Shown here: piece by piece, positions 1 to 25,830 of the stretch
Position numbering within the stretch: the stretch's first letter is position 1
How the letters are laid out: every line of letters begins with the position of its first letter
Assembly (NCBI GenBank): GCA_041170585.1
Contig: JBEDNN010000017.1
Location: forward strand, 1-25,834
Source: Pseudomonadota bacterium
GTDB lineage: Bacteria > Pseudomonadota > Gammaproteobacteria > Burkholderiales > Burkholderiaceae_C
Length of the DNA stretch: 25,834 nt
Direction: 5' to 3'
Notes under the pieces: model-generated
What the model saw: the letters and a program-made list of their open reading frames with translations, nothing else
Database searches by the model: none
What the model was told of the DNA's origin: nothing
Program-made: the position numbers and the translations under genes

Positions 1-2
1 AT

Positions 3-140
3 TATGTTATTTATGGCGGCATTGCTGCTTTAAGTGTACCGAAAGATGTCAGTAAAGCCGCAAAAGCACAAGGTTTATTTGTACTTAAACGCAAAGGCGA
101 ACAACTCAATATTCAAACAGATGGTATGAAAGGTTTTTAG
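3..140 (+). CDS. 3' end of an unidentified CDS (5' end outside the window); 45 codons ending at TAG 138-140
   Basis: Open frame from the window edge, translating ...YVIYGGIAALSVPKDVSKAAKAQGLFVLKRKGEQLNIQTDGMKGF*. Composition is host-like (about 42% GC), unlike the AT-rich spacer 141-330 that follows. No motif recognised. Confidence 0.3.
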   Translation, partial: YVIYGGIAALSVPKDVSKAAKAQGLFVLKRKGEQLNIQTDGMKGF

Positions 141-330
141 GAAGGTATTTTTAATGACTTTGAAATAGGACTATTTATAAATAATAATTACAATTAACAC
201 ACCCATAAAAAGCTGTTAAAAAGAAACTTTAAAATACTGTTTTGTGAGGGATTTAGAGCGTAAAATTACCCAGTGTGGTTTTATTAGTTACTATTTTACT
301 GAACTATACAAACAGATAGGATAAATAAAA

Positions 331-1509
331 ATGCTTAAAATAAACAAAATAAAAATGACTGGAATAGGACCAATAAAAAATTTGGAACTATCCTTTGACA
401 ATCATTTCAATATAATCTGCGGACAAAATGGAATTGGCAAAACAACAATTTTAGATTGCCTGGCACAATCATTTGGAACAAGTAATACTTCTGTTAAAAG
501 GACAGCAGGATTAGAAAAAGGGAATTGGGACATTAATGTGACAATTAACAATGTTAGCCAATCCAAATCTTTTAATATACTCCTTTTTCACCCTAACGAA
601 AACACTTATCAATCACAAGGGTTTTACCAAAACTCAAATGACATTATTGTTTTTAAAACCCACAGAGATATTCCATATCAACATTTAGGCTCACTTAAAA
701 CTGACCCACAAAAAAACTTTTATCAGTTTGCTGAAGAAACAATGAAAGGCTCTTTGCCAAGTGATTTGAAAAATTGGTTTGTAAATAGACATTTGTGGTC
801 AGTACACCAAAATCATTTAGACGAACACCAAATTAAAAATATCACTCTTGCAAAGGAGTGTTTTAATATTCTTAATCCAAATATTTCGTTTAGCAAAGTA
901 AATCCTAGCTCCAATGATATTTTACTAAATACTCCAAATGGAGAAATTTATTTTGAGTATTTATCATCAGGTTACAAGTCTTGTATGGCGGTTTTAATTG
1001 GCTTGATTAAAGAAGTTGAGTTCAGATTTAAAGAACCAAGTAAGTTTATTAAAGACTTTGATGGTATCGTATTTATAGATGAGCTTGATTTGCATTTACA
1101 CCCTGAATGGCAAGCAAAAATATATGAAGCATTAAAAATAATTTTGCCAAATGCACAAGTATTTACATCAACACATAGCCCTCATATTATTCAAGTTGCA
1201 AATGCGAGAGAAATTATTCCACTAATACTTGACGAAACAAATGAGGTTAAATTAAATCAAATCATAAATCAGGAATATGGTTGCCAAGGTTGGACAGTAG
1301 AAGAAATTTTATCCGATGTTATGGGAATGACTGAAACAAGAACTTCTACATATTTAGATGCAATTTCAAATTTCAATATTGCTATTGACAGTGAAGATTT
1401 TAAAGCTGCAAATGCACAATTTTTAATTCTTGATGCTATGTTGCATCCAGAAAACTCGTTGAAAAAAATATTAAAAATACAATTAACTGGAATTTCAGCA
1501 AATGATTAA
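331..1509 (+). CDS. AAA_15/AAA_21-type (ABC/SMC-like) ATPase, Septu PtuA-like
   Basis: Walker A GQNGIGKTTILD near the N-terminus. ABC-signature-like LSSGYKS. Walker B/D-loop IVFIDELDLHLHP. H-loop TSTHSP. True ATG start. Stop overlaps the start of the downstream HNH gene by 8 nt. Very AT-rich compared with flanking genes. Confidence 0.6.
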   Translation: MLKINKIKMTGIGPIKNLELSFDNHFNIICGQNGIGKTTILDCLAQSFGTSNTSVKRTAGLEKGNWDINVTINNVSQSKSFNILLFHPNENTYQSQGFYQNSNDIIVFKTHRDIPYQHLGSLKTDPQKNFYQFAEETMKGSLPSDLKNWFVNRHLWSVHQNHLDEHQIKNITLAKECFNILNPNISFSKVNPSSNDILLNTPNGEIYFEYLSSGYKSCMAVLIGLIKEVEFRFKEPSKFIKDFDGIVFIDELDLHLHPEWQAKIYEALKIILPNAQVFTSTHSPHIIQVANAREIIPLILDETNEVKLNQIINQEYGCQGWTVEEILSDVMGMTETRTSTYLDAISNFNIAIDSEDFKAANAQFLILDAMLHPENSLKKILKIQLTGISAND

Positions 1510-2254
1510 GTTAGATAGAACGCCAAAACCTGTCGAACTCACAACTACATTGCAAGTTGAGTTGACAGATGAATTTAAATTAACAGGCAAATCAGTTTGG
1601 AACATTGATTTTATCAAAAAAGGGTTATTAGGTTTTTCTAATGACAAATGTTGCTATTGTGAAGCGAACATAAATGAAGAAAGTAAATATTTGGAAGTAG
1701 AACATTTTCATCATAAAGACAAATATAAAGACGAAGTTTTAGAATGGGATAATTTACTGCCTTCGTGTAAAAAATGTAATGGAACAAAAAATAACCACGA
1801 CACCAAATTAGAACCAATAATTGACCCAAGCCAAATTGATCCCAAAGTCCATCTCAAATATTGGCGATATAGAATAAAAGGGACTGACGACTTTGGTAAA
1901 TTAACAGTTTCAGTACTAAACTTAAATGACCAAGACAGACTGGTTAAAAAGAGATTTGAAATCGGTAATGCTATCCACGTCAAATTGGAACAATTAAACG
2001 AATTGATAGACGATTACATTAATGGAGTTCAGACAAGCACACAGAGAAAAAATAGAATTGTAAATGGAACAAAAGACCTTATGAGAGAAGGACTTCCGAC
2101 AGCTATTTATTCAGCAACATCTGCAGCTGTAATTTTGACAGATACTGAATTTAAAGCACTAAAAAGTAAATTGGCTTCTTTAGGATTTTGGGATGCAGAG
2201 CTATCTCAGCTTGAAATTGACTTAATTAAAACGGCATTACAACTTGAAAACTAG
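1502..2254 (+). CDS. HNH endonuclease, Septu PtuB-like (TIGR02646-type)
   Basis: HNH motif CCYCE...LEVEHFHHKDKY...WDNLLPSCKKCNGTKNN (Cys pairs plus the catalytic His). Translationally coupled to the upstream ATPase. Matches the ATPase-plus-HNH-nuclease gene pair that defines Septu. AT-rich. Confidence 0.6.
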   Translation: MIKLDRTPKPVELTTTLQVELTDEFKLTGKSVWNIDFIKKGLLGFSNDKCCYCEANINEESKYLEVEHFHHKDKYKDEVLEWDNLLPSCKKCNGTKNNHDTKLEPIIDPSQIDPKVHLKYWRYRIKGTDDFGKLTVSVLNLNDQDRLVKKRFEIGNAIHVKLEQLNELIDDYINGVQTSTQRKNRIVNGTKDLMREGLPTAIYSATSAAVILTDTEFKALKSKLASLGFWDAELSQLEIDLIKTALQLEN

Positions 2255-2411
2255 AAAAGTTATTCATAAAAGTTGTTTTACAAAAAAGTAGAGCGTACTT
2301 TTATAAAAGGTGAAGTTTTATTAACAATCCAGAAAACCACAGCCAATAATCAATTTGTTTTTACTGATTACTGGCTATTTAGTAATACGATTAATATTAA
2401 TTTGAACTCAA

Positions 2412-13336: not shown

Positions 13337-13533
13337 TTTAGAAACTCCTAAAATCAATGCTGGTACACGACATCGCTGCCGTGTACTAAGCTAAACAAGT
13401 TTTATAACCTGTTTTTATAAGCTGTATTTTCAGAATAAAAATAGGTAATGTTAAAATTTAACTTTTATAATATTTATACTGGTGAGGTAGCCTGTTTATT
13501 TTACTGGTTACTTCTTAATTATTAAACTTTTTG

Positions 13534-13586
13534 TATCAGTGCTATTTGAACATTACCTAAAAATACTATAACTATAGTTTATAGTT
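13534..13586 (+). repeat. copy B of the same dispersed direct repeat
   Basis: Same orientation as copy A. Overlaps the stop codon of the peroxiredoxin gene. Confidence 0.75.
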
Positions 13587-17215: not shown

Positions 17216-18313
17216 TTATTTATCAGACTTTCGTCTATTGTCATTTTTACATAACATCTGGCAATTTTCTTCGGTTGTCTTGCCGTTGTCTTTCCAAGGG
17301 GTTATGTGGTCGCCTTCCATCTCTGATATATCAAATTCATTTTTGCAAATAATACATTTGCGTCCTTGTTTTTCATATACTTTTTGCTTTACGCTGTCTG
17401 AAAATGTACGAATACCTAAATACCGTTCGTCTCTTGTCAAAATGTAGGCATAAATCCCGCTTTTTCTTTCCACTTCATCGTCTGCAATAAGTTTAGCAGT
17501 TTCTTCTTCAATGGCTTTAGTGTCATACATCACGTCTTTATGTGTGTTGTAAAGCAAACCCCAAGCAATGCCTTTCATAAATTTTTTACGCTTATTTGTA
17601 AAAGTTGCATCAACCCAAGTCATTACTGATTGAAAATATAACCATAAGGCCGTTGCATTTGGGTCGTGTTGGTGTTTCGCCATATAGCGTTTAATACCAT
17701 CATCGCTATCATCATTATTTATCCAGCCAATCACAGTTTCTAAATACTCTTGTCTATTGACTGAACCGTTTAAATAATCGCTGCCAATTTTTGAAGCAGC
17801 ACAAGCAGTTTTACTGAAGTAGGTTTTTGCACTTGAAACCCAAGCCCCTGTATAAACGGCATTACGCAACTCTTGTTCAGTTAATTTTTCGCCTGCAATA
17901 TTGATAGTCTTAAACCATTCTAATTTTTCGCTTTCTGTGCCGCTACAGACATACACCATTAATGTATAGTCTAGGATTTGTTCTTTTTCATCATCTTTAA
18001 GATTGTGAAAATATCTATTTTGATATGCAAAATCGCCATTCACATATTGACAAATTGAAATAGTTCTTTGTTGTCCGTCAATCACTTCAAAAGTGGTATC
18101 TTTACTGGCTGCCCAATACATTACATTTAAAGGGTATTTTTTGATAACTGTATTAATGACGGCATCACGTTGTTTGTCTTTATAAATAAACTCACGTTGA
18201 TAAGGAGGGCGTATATCCAACTTGCCATCAAAACCAGTTACACCGTTTTCTGCGTTGTCTTTAAAGTTTTTTGATAGTTCTCTTATTTTTATTTTATTGA
18301 GTTCTATATTCAT
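17216..18313 (-). CDS. DUF262 (ParB/GmrS-like NTP-binding) domain fused to a C-terminal HNH nuclease; putative restriction endonuclease
   Basis: DUF262 hallmarks PPYQREF...DGQQR in the N-terminal 100 aa. C-terminal HNH EGDHITPWKDNGKTTEENCQMLCKNDN preceded by CIIC. Start overlaps the stop of the upstream methyltransferase (ATGA). Strongly AT-rich. Confidence 0.7.
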   Translation of the reverse strand: MNIELNKIKIRELSKNFKDNAENGVTGFDGKLDIRPPYQREFIYKDKQRDAVINTVIKKYPLNVMYWAASKDTTFEVIDGQQRTISICQYVNGDFAYQNRYFHNLKDDEKEQILDYTLMVYVCSGTESEKLEWFKTINIAGEKLTEQELRNAVYTGAWVSSAKTYFSKTACAASKIGSDYLNGSVNRQEYLETVIGWINNDDSDDGIKRYMAKHQHDPNATALWLYFQSVMTWVDATFTNKRKKFMKGIAWGLLYNTHKDVMYDTKAIEEETAKLIADDEVERKSGIYAYILTRDERYLGIRTFSDSVKQKVYEKQGRKCIICKNEFDISEMEGDHITPWKDNGKTTEENCQMLCKNDNRRKSDK

Positions 18314-19311
18314 ATTTTTTTATTCTTTATCCAAATTCTTTTATAAACTAATCTCTCGCTATTGTGTATTTTATGAGTTGGTTTTTGAAAAATACCTGGT
18401 TTAACTTCAATATTTTCAAAAGTTTCCGCACCTAAAATTTCAAACTGTTCTGGATTATATTTATCAATAAAAGTTATTGGTACGCCAATTACACCTTCAT
18501 AATCGCAAGGAATATCTTTTGTTTTATCAACATTAATGGCATCATAATTTTCATAGGTTGGATATTCACTTTCATTGCCGTAGTATTTTTTGTATAAAAA
18601 TAAATCTTCGTGCCTTTTTTTAGTATCAATATTTGTGTACCATACAACACCTGAAACCCTTATCATACCTTCTCTATGGTCAGCATCAGAAGCATAATCA
18701 ACATAATGTTGATTTACAAAATGTGCCATATTTCTATTAAACCCATAACCTAACCAAAGCTTATTACTTTTAATTAATTTAAAAATTTCTTTGTAAGTTA
18801 TGGCATTTTGATGTCCGACAATAACAAATTTTTTGTCGTACTCAACCAACTGGGCTACATACTCACGAAACAGTGAAAACGGCGGATTGGTTACAACAAT
18901 GTCGGCTTGCTTTAACAATTCAATACATTCGGCACTTCTAAAATCGCCATCGCCTTTTAAATAAGTAACCTCAATGTCTTCGCGTTTAGGTACTACATCA
19001 CCATTGCTTACGCCAGTATATTCAAGCGAAATACCTCTTTCACATTGATGTGTACTAAATAAATCCATATCTTGGTTTTTATAACACGTTGCAATTAGTT
19101 TTTTTAAGCCAAATTTTTCAAAGTTATATGAAAAAAAGTGAAAGAAATTGCTAATTCTTGGGTCGTCACAATTACATAAAACTACTTTGTTTTTAAAGTG
19201 GTCGCGGTAATGTTTTAGTTCTTTTTCAATATCAGATAATTGTGTATAAAACTCGTCTTTTTTATTGGCTTTTGCAAGCGTTAAATTTGAATTATGTGAT
19301 TTTTTTGTCAT
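18310..19311 (-). CDS. N6-adenine DNA methyltransferase, EcoRI-methylase-like family
   Basis: N-terminal DEFYTQ block and the catalytic motif IV VVTNPPF of amino-methyltransferases. About 333 aa. Start moved to the ATG at 19311 (MTKKSHN...), which has GAGGA 8 nt upstream; the ORF-track start at 19326 is a TTG. Assignment to the EcoRI-methylase family rests on motifs I recalled from memory. Confidence 0.62.
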   Translation of the reverse strand: MTKKSHNSNLTLAKANKKDEFYTQLSDIEKELKHYRDHFKNKVVLCNCDDPRISNFFHFFSYNFEKFGLKKLIATCYKNQDMDLFSTHQCERGISLEYTGVSNGDVVPKREDIEVTYLKGDGDFRSAECIELLKQADIVVTNPPFSLFREYVAQLVEYDKKFVIVGHQNAITYKEIFKLIKSNKLWLGYGFNRNMAHFVNQHYVDYASDADHREGMIRVSGVVWYTNIDTKKRHEDLFLYKKYYGNESEYPTYENYDAINVDKTKDIPCDYEGVIGVPITFIDKYNPEQFEILGAETFENIEVKPGIFQKPTHKIHNSERLVYKRIWIKNKKI

Positions 19312-19370
19312 TACTATTTTCCTCAAACTAACACTTGCACAGTGTCTAAACTTTTATTAAGACTTTTTTA

Positions 19371-24099: not shown

Positions 24100-25830
24100 T
24101 CATTTTAAAAACCCCAATTCATACACCATTGGCCTAAGTTTTTCAGACAGTTCGGCATAGGCTGTTTTAAACGGGTCAAAATCCACTACTTCGTTTTTAG
24201 CGTGGGCTTCTAGGGCTTTGCGAATTTGATACCAGCCGACATCAGCACGATTGAGTTTAAACTCATCTTTAATTTTGTGTTCAAATTCGATGGCGTGATA
24301 TTGTTGCCATAGCATTTTACCTTGTGCTAAAACGGCTTTGGCTTCTTTAGACAACTGTGTTTTTTTAATGGCATTTAAATAATCCACCATAAAGTTGGAT
24401 TCAAATTTATCATTTGCCCCCACTTCAGCAGCGGTAAAAGGAATAAAGTGATTGACGATACTCCATTTTTTTTCGTTCCATTTTAAATTATTGGCACTGG
24501 CGGTGAGGTTGCTGCCGTTAAATAATAACCAAACCAAACAATCATTTTTAAAGACTTCGGTTAAAGGTTCGGTCGCTTGTAAAAACTGGTCACGGTCGTT
24601 TAACCACGTAGGTTTAATTAAGCGGCGTACCGCAAAAATAACTGCCGCTTGAGCGAGGTTGTCTTTGGTTATATAAAAACCGCAGCCATTACTAAAAACT
24701 GATGACAATATTGCAGTATGTGTTGCGGTTTGCTGAAGATCATTGCCAGCACTCCAAAAATATCCAATTGAACTGCTATTCCATGCTGTTACTTTTGCAT
24801 ATGCAATTTGAGGGGATATAGCATTTTTTAATGGAATATTGATTGTATTTGTTGGCAATCTTGGAAGCCATTCATTTAACAATAACTTTGTTGGTAGATT
24901 ATAAAAAACTTTTTCTCCTGCGTATTTGACATTTTTATCTAACGCCGTCGTAGTAATTTCAGTAATTGTTTTTTTCTTGCTAGTGTCCCACACTAAAAAG
25001 CCAATAGGAAAATTACCATTTAAGCCATCAAAAGCCTTGCTATGTACTACAAAGCCACCTAAATAGTGTGCCTGCCATTTTTGTCTAAATTGTTCAAAAT
25101 TGGGAGCATTAACATATTTTAAAGTACTAAACATTGCCAGCTTTGCAGTGGGAATTTCTTTTTGTATACGTGCCATAAACTGTACAAATAACTCACGCGA
25201 GGCATAACCATAACCTGTTTCGTCCATTAATTTACCAATTTGAGTTTTAGAAACACCTTTTTTTGTTTTAATCTCACCACCTGTAATTGTATTTTCAGAG
25301 TTTGAAGCCTCTGCATACGGCGGGTTAATCAATATTAATATCTGTTTTGCACTTTTTACGCCTTTGTCGGCATCAGTAATCGCTTGACGTAAAGATAGGG
25401 GTAATTTATGACTGATTTGATAATCAATATTACCAAAATCATCAATATCATCATTCAAATAATCATATTGAAATTTGGTCGCTTGAACGCACGTTTTAGC
25501 AGCTTTCATTACGTCAATATCGGCTTGGTCTAGCGTACTCATAAATAAATTATTATGATTACTGTGCTTGACTTCAAGGTTGCCCACACCGCAACACATA
25601 TCCCAAACAATGTATTTTTGTTGCCAATTTTTACCCAAGGTTTGGGCTAATAAATCATAAGCCTTGTCCACAACTTTGAGCGGCGTGTAATACGCCCCTT
25701 TAAAATTGCGTTCATCAAGCGGCAATAAACTGTCGCGTCGTGCCAGTAAATATTCGCGGTGTTCAACTTCAGGCGGGCGGTGATACATCGCCCAAAACCG
25801 CCGATAACCTTCGCTACTAGATAACCTCAT
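24100..25830 (-). CDS. gamma-class N6-adenine DNA methyltransferase plus target-recognition region; 5' end may be truncated by the window edge
   Basis: Motif X GAYYTPLKVV, motif I WDMCCGVGNLE, motif IV INPPYAEAS, then about 350 aa of non-conserved sequence (a putative target-recognition domain). The first in-frame ATG is 4 nt from the window end, so the true N-terminus may lie outside. Confidence 0.6.
   Translation of the reverse strand: MRLSSSEGYRRFWAMYHRPPEVEHREYLLARRDSLLPLDERNFKGAYYTPLKVVDKAYDLLAQTLGKNWQQKYIVWDMCCGVGNLEVKHSNHNNLFMSTLDQADIDVMKAAKTCVQATKFQYDYLNDDIDDFGNIDYQISHKLPLSLRQAITDADKGVKSAKQILILINPPYAEASNSENTITGGEIKTKKGVSKTQIGKLMDETGYGYASRELFVQFMARIQKEIPTAKLAMFSTLKYVNAPNFEQFRQKWQAHYLGGFVVHSKAFDGLNGNFPIGFLVWDTSKKKTITEITTTALDKNVKYAGEKVFYNLPTKLLLNEWLPRLPTNTINIPLKNAISPQIAYAKVTAWNSSSIGYFWSAGNDLQQTATHTAILSSVFSNGCGFYITKDNLAQAAVIFAVRRLIKPTWLNDRDQFLQATEPLTEVFKNDCLVWLLFNGSNLTASANNLKWNEKKWSIVNHFIPFTAAEVGANDKFESNFMVDYLNAIKKTQLSKEAKAVLAQGKMLWQQYHAIEFEHKIKDEFKLNRADVGWYQIRKALEAHAKNEVVDFDPFKTAYAELSEKLRPMVYELGFLK

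What the first reader, a model, noticed from the sequence alone, without database searches (positions are those of the whole stretch)
331..2254. Septu-like two-gene defence module (AAA_15/21 ATPase plus HNH nuclease) in a very AT-rich islet next to argJ
The 392-aa protein has Walker A GQNGIGKTT, an ABC-signature-like LSSGYKS, Walker B FIDELD and an H-loop. The 250-aa protein that overlaps its stop by 8 nt has an HNH core (CxxC...HFHHK...CKKCN). ATPase plus HNH is the defining architecture of Septu (PtuA/PtuB). The ATPase is shorter than classical PtuA, which is around 500 aa or more. It could be a compact Septu variant or a related but distinct AAA_21-HNH system. GC content drops sharply relative to the flanks. 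The module is followed by convergent argJ, and no integrase or transposase is present.
Basis: partly seen in the sequence, partly recalled or inferred. Interest (0 to 1): 0.55.

Follow-up and report, generated by a model that had tools for sequence, protein, structure and literature searches.

The report
Ordinary two-gene Septu phage-defence cassette
This is an intact but ordinary Septu anti-phage module (PtuA ATPase plus PtuB HNH nuclease), from a compact subfamily already covered by defence-system catalogues, that a betaproteobacterium picked up from a gene pool living mostly in Bacteroidota.

Summary
Two intact, co-directional ORFs (331-1509, 392 aa; 1502-2254, 250 aa) overlap by 8 nt.

This is a stand-alone (type I) Septu system, not a distinct AAA_21-HNH system:
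- Both proteins match dedicated PADLOC PtuA1/PtuB1 profiles end to end (7e-159 over 390/392 positions; 1.1e-96 over 246/247).
- The 50 best structural matches listed for an AlphaFold model of the ATPase are all PtuA chains, with E. coli Septu first.
- The pair is adjacent, with the same overlap, in 15 of 15 related loci.
- No reverse transcriptase or third conserved gene is present.

The short ATPase is not new. About 70 cluster representatives at 50% identity have the same 385-412 aa length. Roughly 68 residues are missing from the middle region, while the C-terminal helical tail is kept.

Named relatives are almost all Bacteroidota (77-92% identity), whereas the host is a Burkholderiales-like betaproteobacterium. 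The cassette (window 145-2411) occupies a variable slot. One close relative carries a methyltransferase there, and another carries only Septu remnants around a MITE-like element.

Verdict: a new member of a known kind, of low interest.

The parts
145..2411 (.). Septu cassette: the segment present here but replaced by other genes in the closest syntenic relative
   Evidence: blastn of L001 against L016 (ArgJ 94% identical). Synteny runs to L001 8476 and resumes at L001 10744, the argJ stop. With window = L001 - 8332, the segment is window 145-2411. L016 carries a VanW fragment, a 49-aa ORF and a methyltransferase there instead. GC is 0.303.
331..1509 (+). ptuA: ABC/SMC-type ATPase, 392 aa
   Evidence: PADLOC PDLC00305 PtuA1 at 7e-159, residues 2-389 against profile 1-390/392. 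Pfam AAA_15, AAA_21 and AAA_23 are above cut-off. AlphaFold model has pLDDT 81.5, and the 50 best PDB matches listed are all PtuA chains, 8eea_C first at E 1.1e-19.
421..447 (+). PtuA Walker A, GQNGIGKTT (K37)
   Evidence: Read directly from the sequence. G31-T39 are invariant or nearly invariant in 42 homologues.
961..981 (+). PtuA ABC signature motif LSSGYKS, with Tyr215 in the position of the canonical Gln
   Evidence: L211-S217 invariant. It aligns with LSDGLR of E. coli Septu PtuA and LSDGQR of retron PtuA. The motif is described in PMC12819146.
1066..1089 (+). PtuA Walker B and D-loop, IVFIDELD (D250, E251)
   Evidence: D250, E251 and D253 invariant.
1165..1182 (+). PtuA H-loop, TSTHSP (H282)
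   Evidence: T281, H282, S283 and P284 invariant.
1297..1506 (+). PtuA C-terminal helical extension (aa 323-392), the likely PtuB-docking tail
   Evidence: The AlphaFold model has helices at 323-330, 339-353, 357-371 and 378-385, and the last 20 residues are low-confidence. phmmer aligns up to residue 362 with retron PtuA residue 509 of 551. The role of this tail in binding the PtuB C-terminal domain is taken from PMC12819146. That it does so here is inferred.
1502..2254 (+). ptuB: HNH nuclease, 250 aa
   Evidence: PADLOC PDLC00342 PtuB1 at 1.1e-96, residues 1-248 against profile 1-246/247. Pfam HNH scores 22.2 bits (cut-off 21.4). The PDB match to 9n69_F, a TIGR02646 family protein, has E 4.5e-4.
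1649..1798 (+). PtuB HNH / zinc-finger core (C50, C53, H68, N84, C89, C92, N93, H99)
   Evidence: All eight residues are invariant in 12 PtuB sequences, including a 41%-identical one. The H68-N84 spacing of 16 equals the H75-N91 spacing of the residues mutated in Septu EcB88 (PMC13096335).
1502..1509 (+). 8-nt ptuA/ptuB overlap (ATGATTAA), which implies translational coupling
   Evidence: The same overlap geometry occurs in 15 of 15 related loci.
160..188 (+). Candidate sigma-70 promoter (TTGAAA-17-AATAAT, 10 of 12), weak evidence only
   Evidence: The number of promoter-like sites in the region (11) is not above the shuffled controls (12.8 +/- 4.0). It lies in the part of the cassette that is not shared with the Bacteroidota loci.
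2339..2378 (-). 16-bp-stem hairpin followed by a T-run, between the convergent ptuB and argJ. Terminator-like on the argJ strand and possibly bidirectional

Best explanation
The locus is a stand-alone (type I) Septu anti-phage system of the compact 392/250-aa subfamily. That subfamily circulates mainly in Bacteroidota. Here it was acquired horizontally by a low-GC Burkholderiales-like betaproteobacterium, in a variable slot beside argJ.

Shown here:
- Both genes are intact, translationally coupled and full-length members of PADLOC's PtuA1 and PtuB1 families.
- All ATPase and HNH catalytic residues are conserved.
- The pair is under purifying selection and always travels as a pair.

Inferred from characterised homologues:
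- PtuA, an ABC/SMC-type ATPase, oligomerises and holds the PtuB HNH nuclease through its C-terminal helical tail.
- In uninfected cells the nucleotide-bound assembly keeps the nuclease quiet.
- A phage cue (a phage protein, or a fall in ATP) releases nuclease activity. [quoted passage not shown]
- Phage replication is arrested at the cost of host growth.

The substrate and the trigger for this subfamily are unknown.
For: Family assignment:
- PADLOC gives PtuA1 PDLC00305 at 7e-159 (390/392 profile positions) and PtuB1 PDLC00342 at 1.1e-96 (246/247). All 25 best ATPase hits are PtuA or retron I-A ATPase models.
- Pfam AAA_15, AAA_21, AAA_23 and HNH are above cut-off.
- PDB sequence hits are PtuA and PtuB chains.
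- The AlphaFold model (pLDDT 81.5, pTM 0.79) has PtuA chains as its 50 best Foldseek matches listed, with 8eea_C (E. coli Septu) first at E 1.1e-19 and TM 0.64.

Gene pairing:
- ptuB follows ptuA with the same overlap in 12 of 12 genome loci and in 3 further metagenome loci.
- No other neighbour is conserved.

Selection and conservation:
- dN/dS is 0.05-0.17 for both genes.
- Catalytic residues are invariant.

Stand-alone rather than retron-linked:
- There is no reverse transcriptase upstream in L001 or L002.
- There is no Rfam hit in the window.
- PtuA has no N-terminal extension: its residue 3 aligns with residue 2 of E. coli Septu PtuA, but with residue 55 or later of retron PtuA.

Defence-island context in relatives:
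- A type I R-M HsdM lies beside it in L009, and tyrosine integrases in L003 (Pfam) and, by blastp clustering with it, in L010 and L011.
- Abi_2 and MukE-containing genes lie beside it in L019.

Mechanism, from the literature:
- A 6:2 PtuA:PtuB complex, ATP-inhibited DNA nicking and no ATPase activity in E. coli Septu (cited in PMC12819146 and PMC12640716).
- tRNA-Tyr cleavage that needs Walker A/B and HNH residues in Septu EcB88 (PMC13096335).
Against: - No experiment exists for this subfamily. Identity to any solved PtuA is only 14-19%.
- The curated NCBIfam cut-offs are not reached: retron PtuA 122 against 500, retron PtuB 62 against 150, TIGR02646 39.7 against 52.15.
- About 68 residues of the PtuA middle region are missing relative to E. 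coli PtuA, so the 6:2 assembly may not carry over.
- No promoter stands out above chance, and expression in this host has not been shown.
- A sister lineage (L015) has deleted the interior of the cassette. The system is therefore dispensable.
Confidence: 0.88

Rival explanations
1. A related but distinct ATPase-HNH system that only resembles Septu.
For: The NCBIfam PtuA, PtuB and TIGR02646 cut-offs are not met. Identity to solved PtuA structures is only 14-19%. PtuA is about 70 aa shorter than E. coli PtuA.
Against: Both proteins match PADLOC models named PtuA1 and PtuB1 over their full length, so the subfamily is already inside the operational definition of Septu. The 50 best structural matches listed are all PtuA. 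Domain order, gene order and the C-terminal helical tail are the same as in PtuA.
Confidence: 0.04
2. An effector pair of a type I-A retron (Septu type II) whose reverse transcriptase and ncRNA lie elsewhere or were lost.
For: The best NCBIfam hits are the retron Ec78 PtuA and PtuB equivalogs. The best PDB sequence hits include retron PtuA chains.
Against: Those hits are far below cut-off. No reverse transcriptase lies upstream in L001 or L002, where the upstream gene is a 188-aa protein conserved in the lineage. There is no Rfam match. In 15 related loci the ORFs directly upstream are under 240 aa or are integrase, RF-1 or UvrC. PtuA lacks the N-terminal extension that retron PtuA uses to contact the reverse transcriptase (PMC12819146).
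Confidence: 0.02
3. A silent or decaying passenger in this host: a horizontally acquired cassette that is not expressed or no longer useful.
For: The close relative L015 keeps only the first 77 nt or so of ptuA and the last 210 nt or so of ptuB, flanking a MITE-like element. No promoter stands out above chance. The composition has not drifted towards the host's.
Against: Both ORFs are intact and full length with every catalytic residue present. The sequence is identical on two contigs from different metagenome samples. dN/dS is low, although that reflects the whole clade rather than this branch alone.
Confidence: 0.06

Closest known systems
Stand-alone E. coli Septu PtuAB (PDB 8EE4, 8EE7, 8EEA, 8SUX; Li et al. 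2024, doi 10.1038/s41594-023-01172-8, known here only through citing papers)
   Same: It has the same two-gene ptuA-ptuB order and the same pairing of an ABC ATPase with an HNH nuclease. PtuA has no N-terminal extension. The canonical Gln of the signature motif is replaced (Leu there, Tyr215 here). The C-terminal helical tail is present. It is the best structural match (8eea_C, E 1.1e-19).
   Different: PtuA here is 392 aa rather than 465 aa. About 68 residues are missing between the Walker A lobe and the signature motif. PtuB is 250 aa, against 215-227 aa for the solved PtuB chains matched here. Identity is about 16-18%. Whether the 6:2 assembly and ATP-inhibited nicking apply here has not been tested.
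Septu EcB88 (PMC13096335)
   Same: It is a stand-alone PtuAB system. The essential residues Walker A Lys, Walker B Asp, HNH His and HNH Asn all have counterparts here (K37, D250, H68, N84), and the His-Asn spacing of 16 is identical.
   Different: The Walker A to Walker B distance is 273 residues there (K43 to D316) and 213 here (K37 to D250). A tRNA-Tyr variable-loop target has been shown only for EcB88.
Retron type I-A / Septu type II effectors (retron Ec78/Eco7 and Ec83/Eco4 PtuAB; PMC12819146, PMC12640716, PMC11555353)
   Same: The ATPase core, the HNH nuclease and the interface between the PtuA tail and the PtuB C-terminal domain are homologous.
   Different: Here there is no reverse transcriptase, ncRNA or msDNA. 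PtuA has no N-terminal extension, and it is 150-160 aa shorter. The NCBIfam equivalog cut-offs are not met.
Other ABC-ATPase plus nuclease defence systems (Gabija GajA, PARIS AriA/AriB, OLD family)
   Same: They share an ABC/SMC-like ATPase head that regulates a nuclease. AriA is a weak PDB hit (E 6e-7, around the Walker B region only).
   Different: Their nuclease is Toprim rather than HNH. None of them appears among the 25 best PADLOC hits.

Membership tests
Septu type I (PtuA + PtuB, stand-alone) | An ATPase that matches a PtuA profile over its full length | tested here: met
   PADLOC PDLC00305 PtuA1 at 7e-159, residues 2-389 against 1-390/392. Pfam AAA_15 scores 78.5 bits and AAA_21 73.2 bits. 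The fold is PtuA.
Septu type I (PtuA + PtuB, stand-alone) | An HNH nuclease that matches a PtuB profile, with an intact HNH/zinc-finger core | tested here: met
   PADLOC PDLC00342 PtuB1 at 1.1e-96, residues 1-248 against 1-246/247. Pfam HNH scores 22.2 bits against a cut-off of 21.4. C50, C53, H68, N84, C89, C92 and H99 are invariant.
Septu type I (PtuA + PtuB, stand-alone) | ptuA immediately upstream of ptuB on the same strand, and conserved as a pair | tested here: met
   The genes overlap by 8 nt. The same arrangement holds in 15 of 15 related loci, and no third gene is conserved.
Septu type I (PtuA + PtuB, stand-alone) | No associated reverse transcriptase (this separates type I from type II / retron I-A) | tested here: met
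   The genes upstream of ptuA on L001 and L002 are IMPDH, RecJ, cytochrome b and a 188-aa protein with no family match. There is no Rfam hit.
Septu type I (PtuA + PtuB, stand-alone) | PtuA oligomer bound to PtuB through the PtuA C-terminal extension | not testable with these tools
   Only a monomer model could be made. It shows a helical C-terminal tail (aa 323-385) whose last 20 residues are low-confidence. This fits a docking element but does not prove one.
Septu type I (PtuA + PtuB, stand-alone) | Protection against phage that depends on both the ATPase and the HNH active sites | not testable with these tools
   This needs a phage challenge with K37A, E251Q and H68A mutants.
Retron type I-A effectors (NCBIfam NF041760 PtuA, NF041761 PtuB) | A score above the curated equivalog cut-off | tested here: not met
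   PtuA scores 122.4 bits against a cut-off of 500, and PtuB 62 bits against 150.
TIGR02646 (retron-system putative HNH endonuclease subfamily) | A score above the curated cut-off | tested here: not met
   39.7 bits against a cut-off of 52.15, with E 4.8e-10 over the HNH core only. The protein is related but falls outside the curated family.
RecF / ABC transporter ATPases (non-defence alternatives) | A score above the curated cut-off | tested here: not met
   RecF TIGR00611 scores 30.7 bits against 172, on the N-terminal 79 residues only. Pfam ABC_tran scores 16.2 bits against 25. The name 'Recombinase RecF' that some sources give to homologues is not supported.

The most novel reading that the evidence does not exclude
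The compact, Bacteroidota-centred PtuAB clade lacks about 68 residues of the PtuA middle region and has a Tyr in the signature motif. It might assemble with a different stoichiometry, or use a different trigger or nucleic-acid target, from the E. coli Septu systems studied so far. Its presence in a betaproteobacterium would then show that such a variant works across phyla without any host-specific partner.
Probability: 0.2. Interest if true: 0.35.

Novelty: new member of a known kind. Interest (0 to 1): 0.17.

Why it matters
The finding matters little on its own. It is a routine PADLOC-type annotation of a Septu type I system.

Three modest points may be useful:
- It documents that the 392/250-aa Septu subfamily is a self-contained two-gene cassette. 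Its GC stays at 0.28-0.35 (about 0.30-0.31 in most loci) in hosts whose flanking DNA ranges from 28 to 48% GC, and it crosses phylum boundaries.
- It pins the insertion to a variable slot beside argJ, where close relatives carry different cargo or a decayed copy. This is a small natural example of defence-gene gain and loss.
- No member of this compact clade appears to have been characterised biochemically. It would therefore be a reasonable minimal Septu for structural work.

Tried and rejected
- A single-sequence AlphaFold run of PtuA gave an unusable model (pLDDT 37.8). It was replaced by a run with a 42-sequence alignment.
- Rfam and tRNA scans of the window found nothing. There is therefore no retron ncRNA and no tRNA integration site.
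- A search for direct or inverted repeats flanking the cassette gave only short matches at chance level. No attachment sites or terminal repeats were identified.
- The promoter scan was not above the shuffled controls.
- The Li et al. 2024 Septu structure paper is not held in the library. Its findings are cited second-hand, through PMC12819146 and PMC12640716.
- A literature search for Septu in Bacteroidota or Flavobacterium returned noise, because 'septu' also matches 'septum'.
- The 188-aa gene upstream was considered as a third component and rejected. It is conserved in L016, which lacks Septu, and it has no PADLOC hit.
- A chimeric metagenome assembly was considered and rejected. The same junctions occur on contigs from two samples, and a third assembly carries remnants at the same site.
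Full report
**Observation.** The window carries two co-directional ORFs: 331..1509 (392 aa) and 1502..2254 (250 aa). They overlap by the 8 nt ATGATTAA.
- In the ATPase: Walker A GQNGIGKTT (aa 31-39), signature-like LSSGYKS (211-217), Walker B/D-loop IVFIDELD (246-253) and H-loop TSTHSP (279-284).
- In the second protein: a CxxC...EH...N...CxxC...H HNH/zinc-finger core (aa 50-99).

GC is 0.30 across the islet, against 0.38 for the rest of the window and 0.40-0.43 in the neighbouring genes. The downstream gene on the minus strand is a bona fide argJ (513 bits against a cut-off of 351). No integrase or transposase turned up among the window ORFs of 100 aa or more that were scanned or carry precomputed Pfam hits.

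**What it is.** Against PADLOC-DB the 392-aa protein matches the PtuA1 model PDLC00305 end to end (7e-159; residues 2-389 on profile positions 1-390 of 392). The 250-aa protein matches the PtuB1 model PDLC00342 end to end (1.1e-96; 1-248 on 1-246 of 247). The next 24 ATPase hits are all PtuA or retron I-A ATPase models.

Other evidence agrees:
- Pfam gives AAA_15, AAA_21 and AAA_23 for the ATPase, and HNH just above cut-off for the nuclease.
- Sequence hits in the PDB are PtuA chains for the ATPase (E. coli Septu 8ee4_A at 1e-17; retron PtuA at 1e-18) and PtuB/TIGR02646 chains for the nuclease.
- An AlphaFold model built on a 42-sequence alignment (pLDDT 81.5, pTM 0.79) returns PtuA chains for all 50 best Foldseek matches listed in the PDB. 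E. coli Septu 8eea_C is first (E 1.1e-19, TM 0.64).

The non-defence alternatives fail. RecF scores 30.7 bits against a cut-off of 172, and ABC_tran 16 bits against 25.

**Stand-alone, not retron-linked.** The exact PtuA protein is found on two JGI metagenome contigs, L001 and L002. These extend the window leftwards. The upstream genes are IMPDH, RecJ, a cytochrome b561 and a 188-aa protein with no family match. There is no reverse transcriptase. Rfam finds nothing in the window.

PtuA starts at the position where E. coli Septu PtuA starts. Retron PtuA carries 50-70 extra N-terminal residues, which are used to contact the reverse transcriptase and ncRNA (PMC12819146). The retron equivalogs NF041760 and NF041761, and TIGR02646, are all below their curated cut-offs.

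**The 'short' ATPase.** phmmer aligns residues 3-45 with 2-44 of E. coli PtuA, and 197-333 with 265-400. About 68 residues are therefore missing between the Walker A lobe and the signature motif. The C-terminal tail is similar in length (59 against 65 residues) and is predicted to be helical (helices 323-330, 339-353, 357-371, 378-385). [quoted passage not shown]

The compact length is not an oddity. An exhaustive search of 1.84 billion cluster representatives gives 13,598 relatives at E <= 1e-3 and 114 at E <= 1e-30. About 70 of these representatives align end to end with lengths of 385-412 aa.

The signature motif has Tyr215 where canonical ABC ATPases and retron PtuA have Gln, and where E. 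coli Septu PtuA has Leu. This puts the protein on the stand-alone side. In E. coli Septu, ATP binding rather than ATP turnover is reported to regulate the nuclease. Whether that holds here is inference.

**Co-conservation and mobility.** A scan of 185,579 species genomes returned 12 loci. Eleven are Bacteroidota (Cytophagales, Flavobacterium, Sporocytophaga, Chitinophagaceae, Emticicia, Bacteroidales) and one is a Pyrinomonadales MAG. In all 12, a PtuB homologue starts 5 nt before the end of the PtuA match. Three further metagenome loci show the same 392/250-aa pair with the same 8-nt overlap.

No other neighbour is conserved. The neighbours vary widely:
- a tyrosine integrase beside it in L003 (Pfam), with ORFs in L010 and L011 clustering with it;
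- a type I R-M HsdM in L009;
- Abi_2 and MukE-containing genes in L019;
- DUF4917 genes in L018;
- plain housekeeping genes (RF-1, UvrC, AcrB) elsewhere.

The cassette keeps a GC of 0.28-0.35 (about 0.30-0.31 in most loci) whatever the flanking GC (0.28-0.48). dN/dS against seven relatives is 0.05-0.17 for both genes. Nucleotide similarity to the Bacteroidota loci covers only window 321-2285 (87% to a Chitinophagaceae MAG). That is the two ORFs plus about 10 nt upstream and 30 nt downstream.

**Host and insertion site.** ArgJ's best named relatives are Burkholderiales and other betaproteobacteria at 62-69%. The rest of the window is housekeeping: fadB, thiolase, purK, mlaC, fabG, fabD, clpX, clpP, tig and tatD. 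The cassette is therefore foreign to its host's phylum.

Comparison with close relatives of the host defines the unit.
- L016 (ArgJ 94% identical) is syntenic up to the end of the 188-aa gene and again from the argJ stop. Between these points it carries a VanW fragment, a 49-aa ORF and a methyltransferase. The cassette is therefore window 145-2411.
- L015 (ArgJ also 94% identical) retains, at the same site, 51 nt of upstream sequence plus the first 77 nt of ptuA, and the last 210 nt or so of ptuB. A 113-bp MITE-like element with terminal inverted repeats lies between them.

The system was thus gained in this lineage and has since been destroyed in a sister lineage. A chimeric assembly is excluded, because the junctions recur in independent samples.

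**Mechanism.**
- Shown here: both genes are intact and translationally coupled, all catalytic residues are present, and the pair is obligate.
- Taken from characterised homologues: E. coli Septu forms a 6:2 PtuA:PtuB complex whose DNA-nicking activity is inhibited by ATP and which lacks ATPase activity (cited in PMC12819146 and PMC12640716). Stand-alone Septu is reported to be sensitised by phage tail fibre (PMC12819146). [quoted passage not shown]
- Most likely model for this locus: a PtuA oligomer holds PtuB through its C-terminal tail in a nucleotide-bound, inactive state. A phage cue then unleashes the HNH nuclease on DNA or tRNA. Phage replication is arrested at a cost to host growth.
- Unknown for this subfamily: the target, the trigger and the stoichiometry. 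These may differ, given the shortened middle region.

**Verdict.** This is a Septu type I system, a new member of a known kind that is already captured by PADLOC's models. Interest is low. The only mildly notable aspects are the spread of an unaltered two-gene cassette across phyla and the visible gain and loss at a variable slot beside argJ.

Noticed in passing
window 17216-19326 (minus strand): There is a second defence islet between fabD and clpX. It holds an EcoRI-family adenine methyltransferase (18310..19326; Pfam PF13651 at 6e-133; PADLOC MTase_II at 3.5e-122). This overlaps by 4 nt a DUF262/GmrSD_N-HNH nuclease (17216..18313; PADLOC REase_II PDLC03418 at 1e-131, end to end). GC is 0.29-0.36, against 0.38-0.47 in the flanks. 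It looks like a type II R-M pair.
   Followed up: partly
window 13427-13555 (minus strand); also L001 95-207 and L015 4036-4148: A MITE-like repeat of about 113-130 bp has terminal inverted repeats (AGGTAATGTTCAAAT ... ATTTTAACATTACCT) and 80-90% identity between copies. In relative L015 one copy sits exactly at the junction where the interior of the Septu cassette has been deleted.
   Followed up: partly
L015 3661-4277 (relative of the host; corresponds to window 280-407 and 2045-2411): A decayed Septu lies at the same chromosomal site. Only the ptuA 5' end with its upstream 51 nt and the ptuB 3' end survive, and the neighbouring 188-aa gene is reduced to 79 bp.
   Followed up: yes
window 1-139 (3' end of a gene; complete at L001 7906-8472): A 188-aa protein lies directly upstream of the cassette. 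It has no family above threshold and only faint HSDR_N/NERD (PD-(D/E)XK-like) similarity. It has a homologue in L016, which lacks Septu, so it is not part of the system.
   Followed up: partly
L001 189-3068 (outside the window, 5 kb upstream of the cassette): A three-gene minus-strand operon includes an AAA_5/McrB-like protein (PADLOC REase_II models at 4.5e-34). At the equivalent place L016 has an Abi_alpha/DUF2806 gene. This points to a second variable defence slot beside IMPDH.
   Followed up: no
window 331-2254 compared with L010 6001-7918: Synonymous divergence from the Chitinophagaceae copy is much lower for ptuB (dS 0.31) than for ptuA (dS 0.81). This may mean there has been recombination within the cassette.
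   Followed up: no
window 24100-25830 (minus strand): A 576-aa ORF at the window edge has only weak methyltransferase-like signals (Pfam MTS 23 bits; PADLOC MTase_II at 2e-6) and no NCBIfam family.
   Followed up: no
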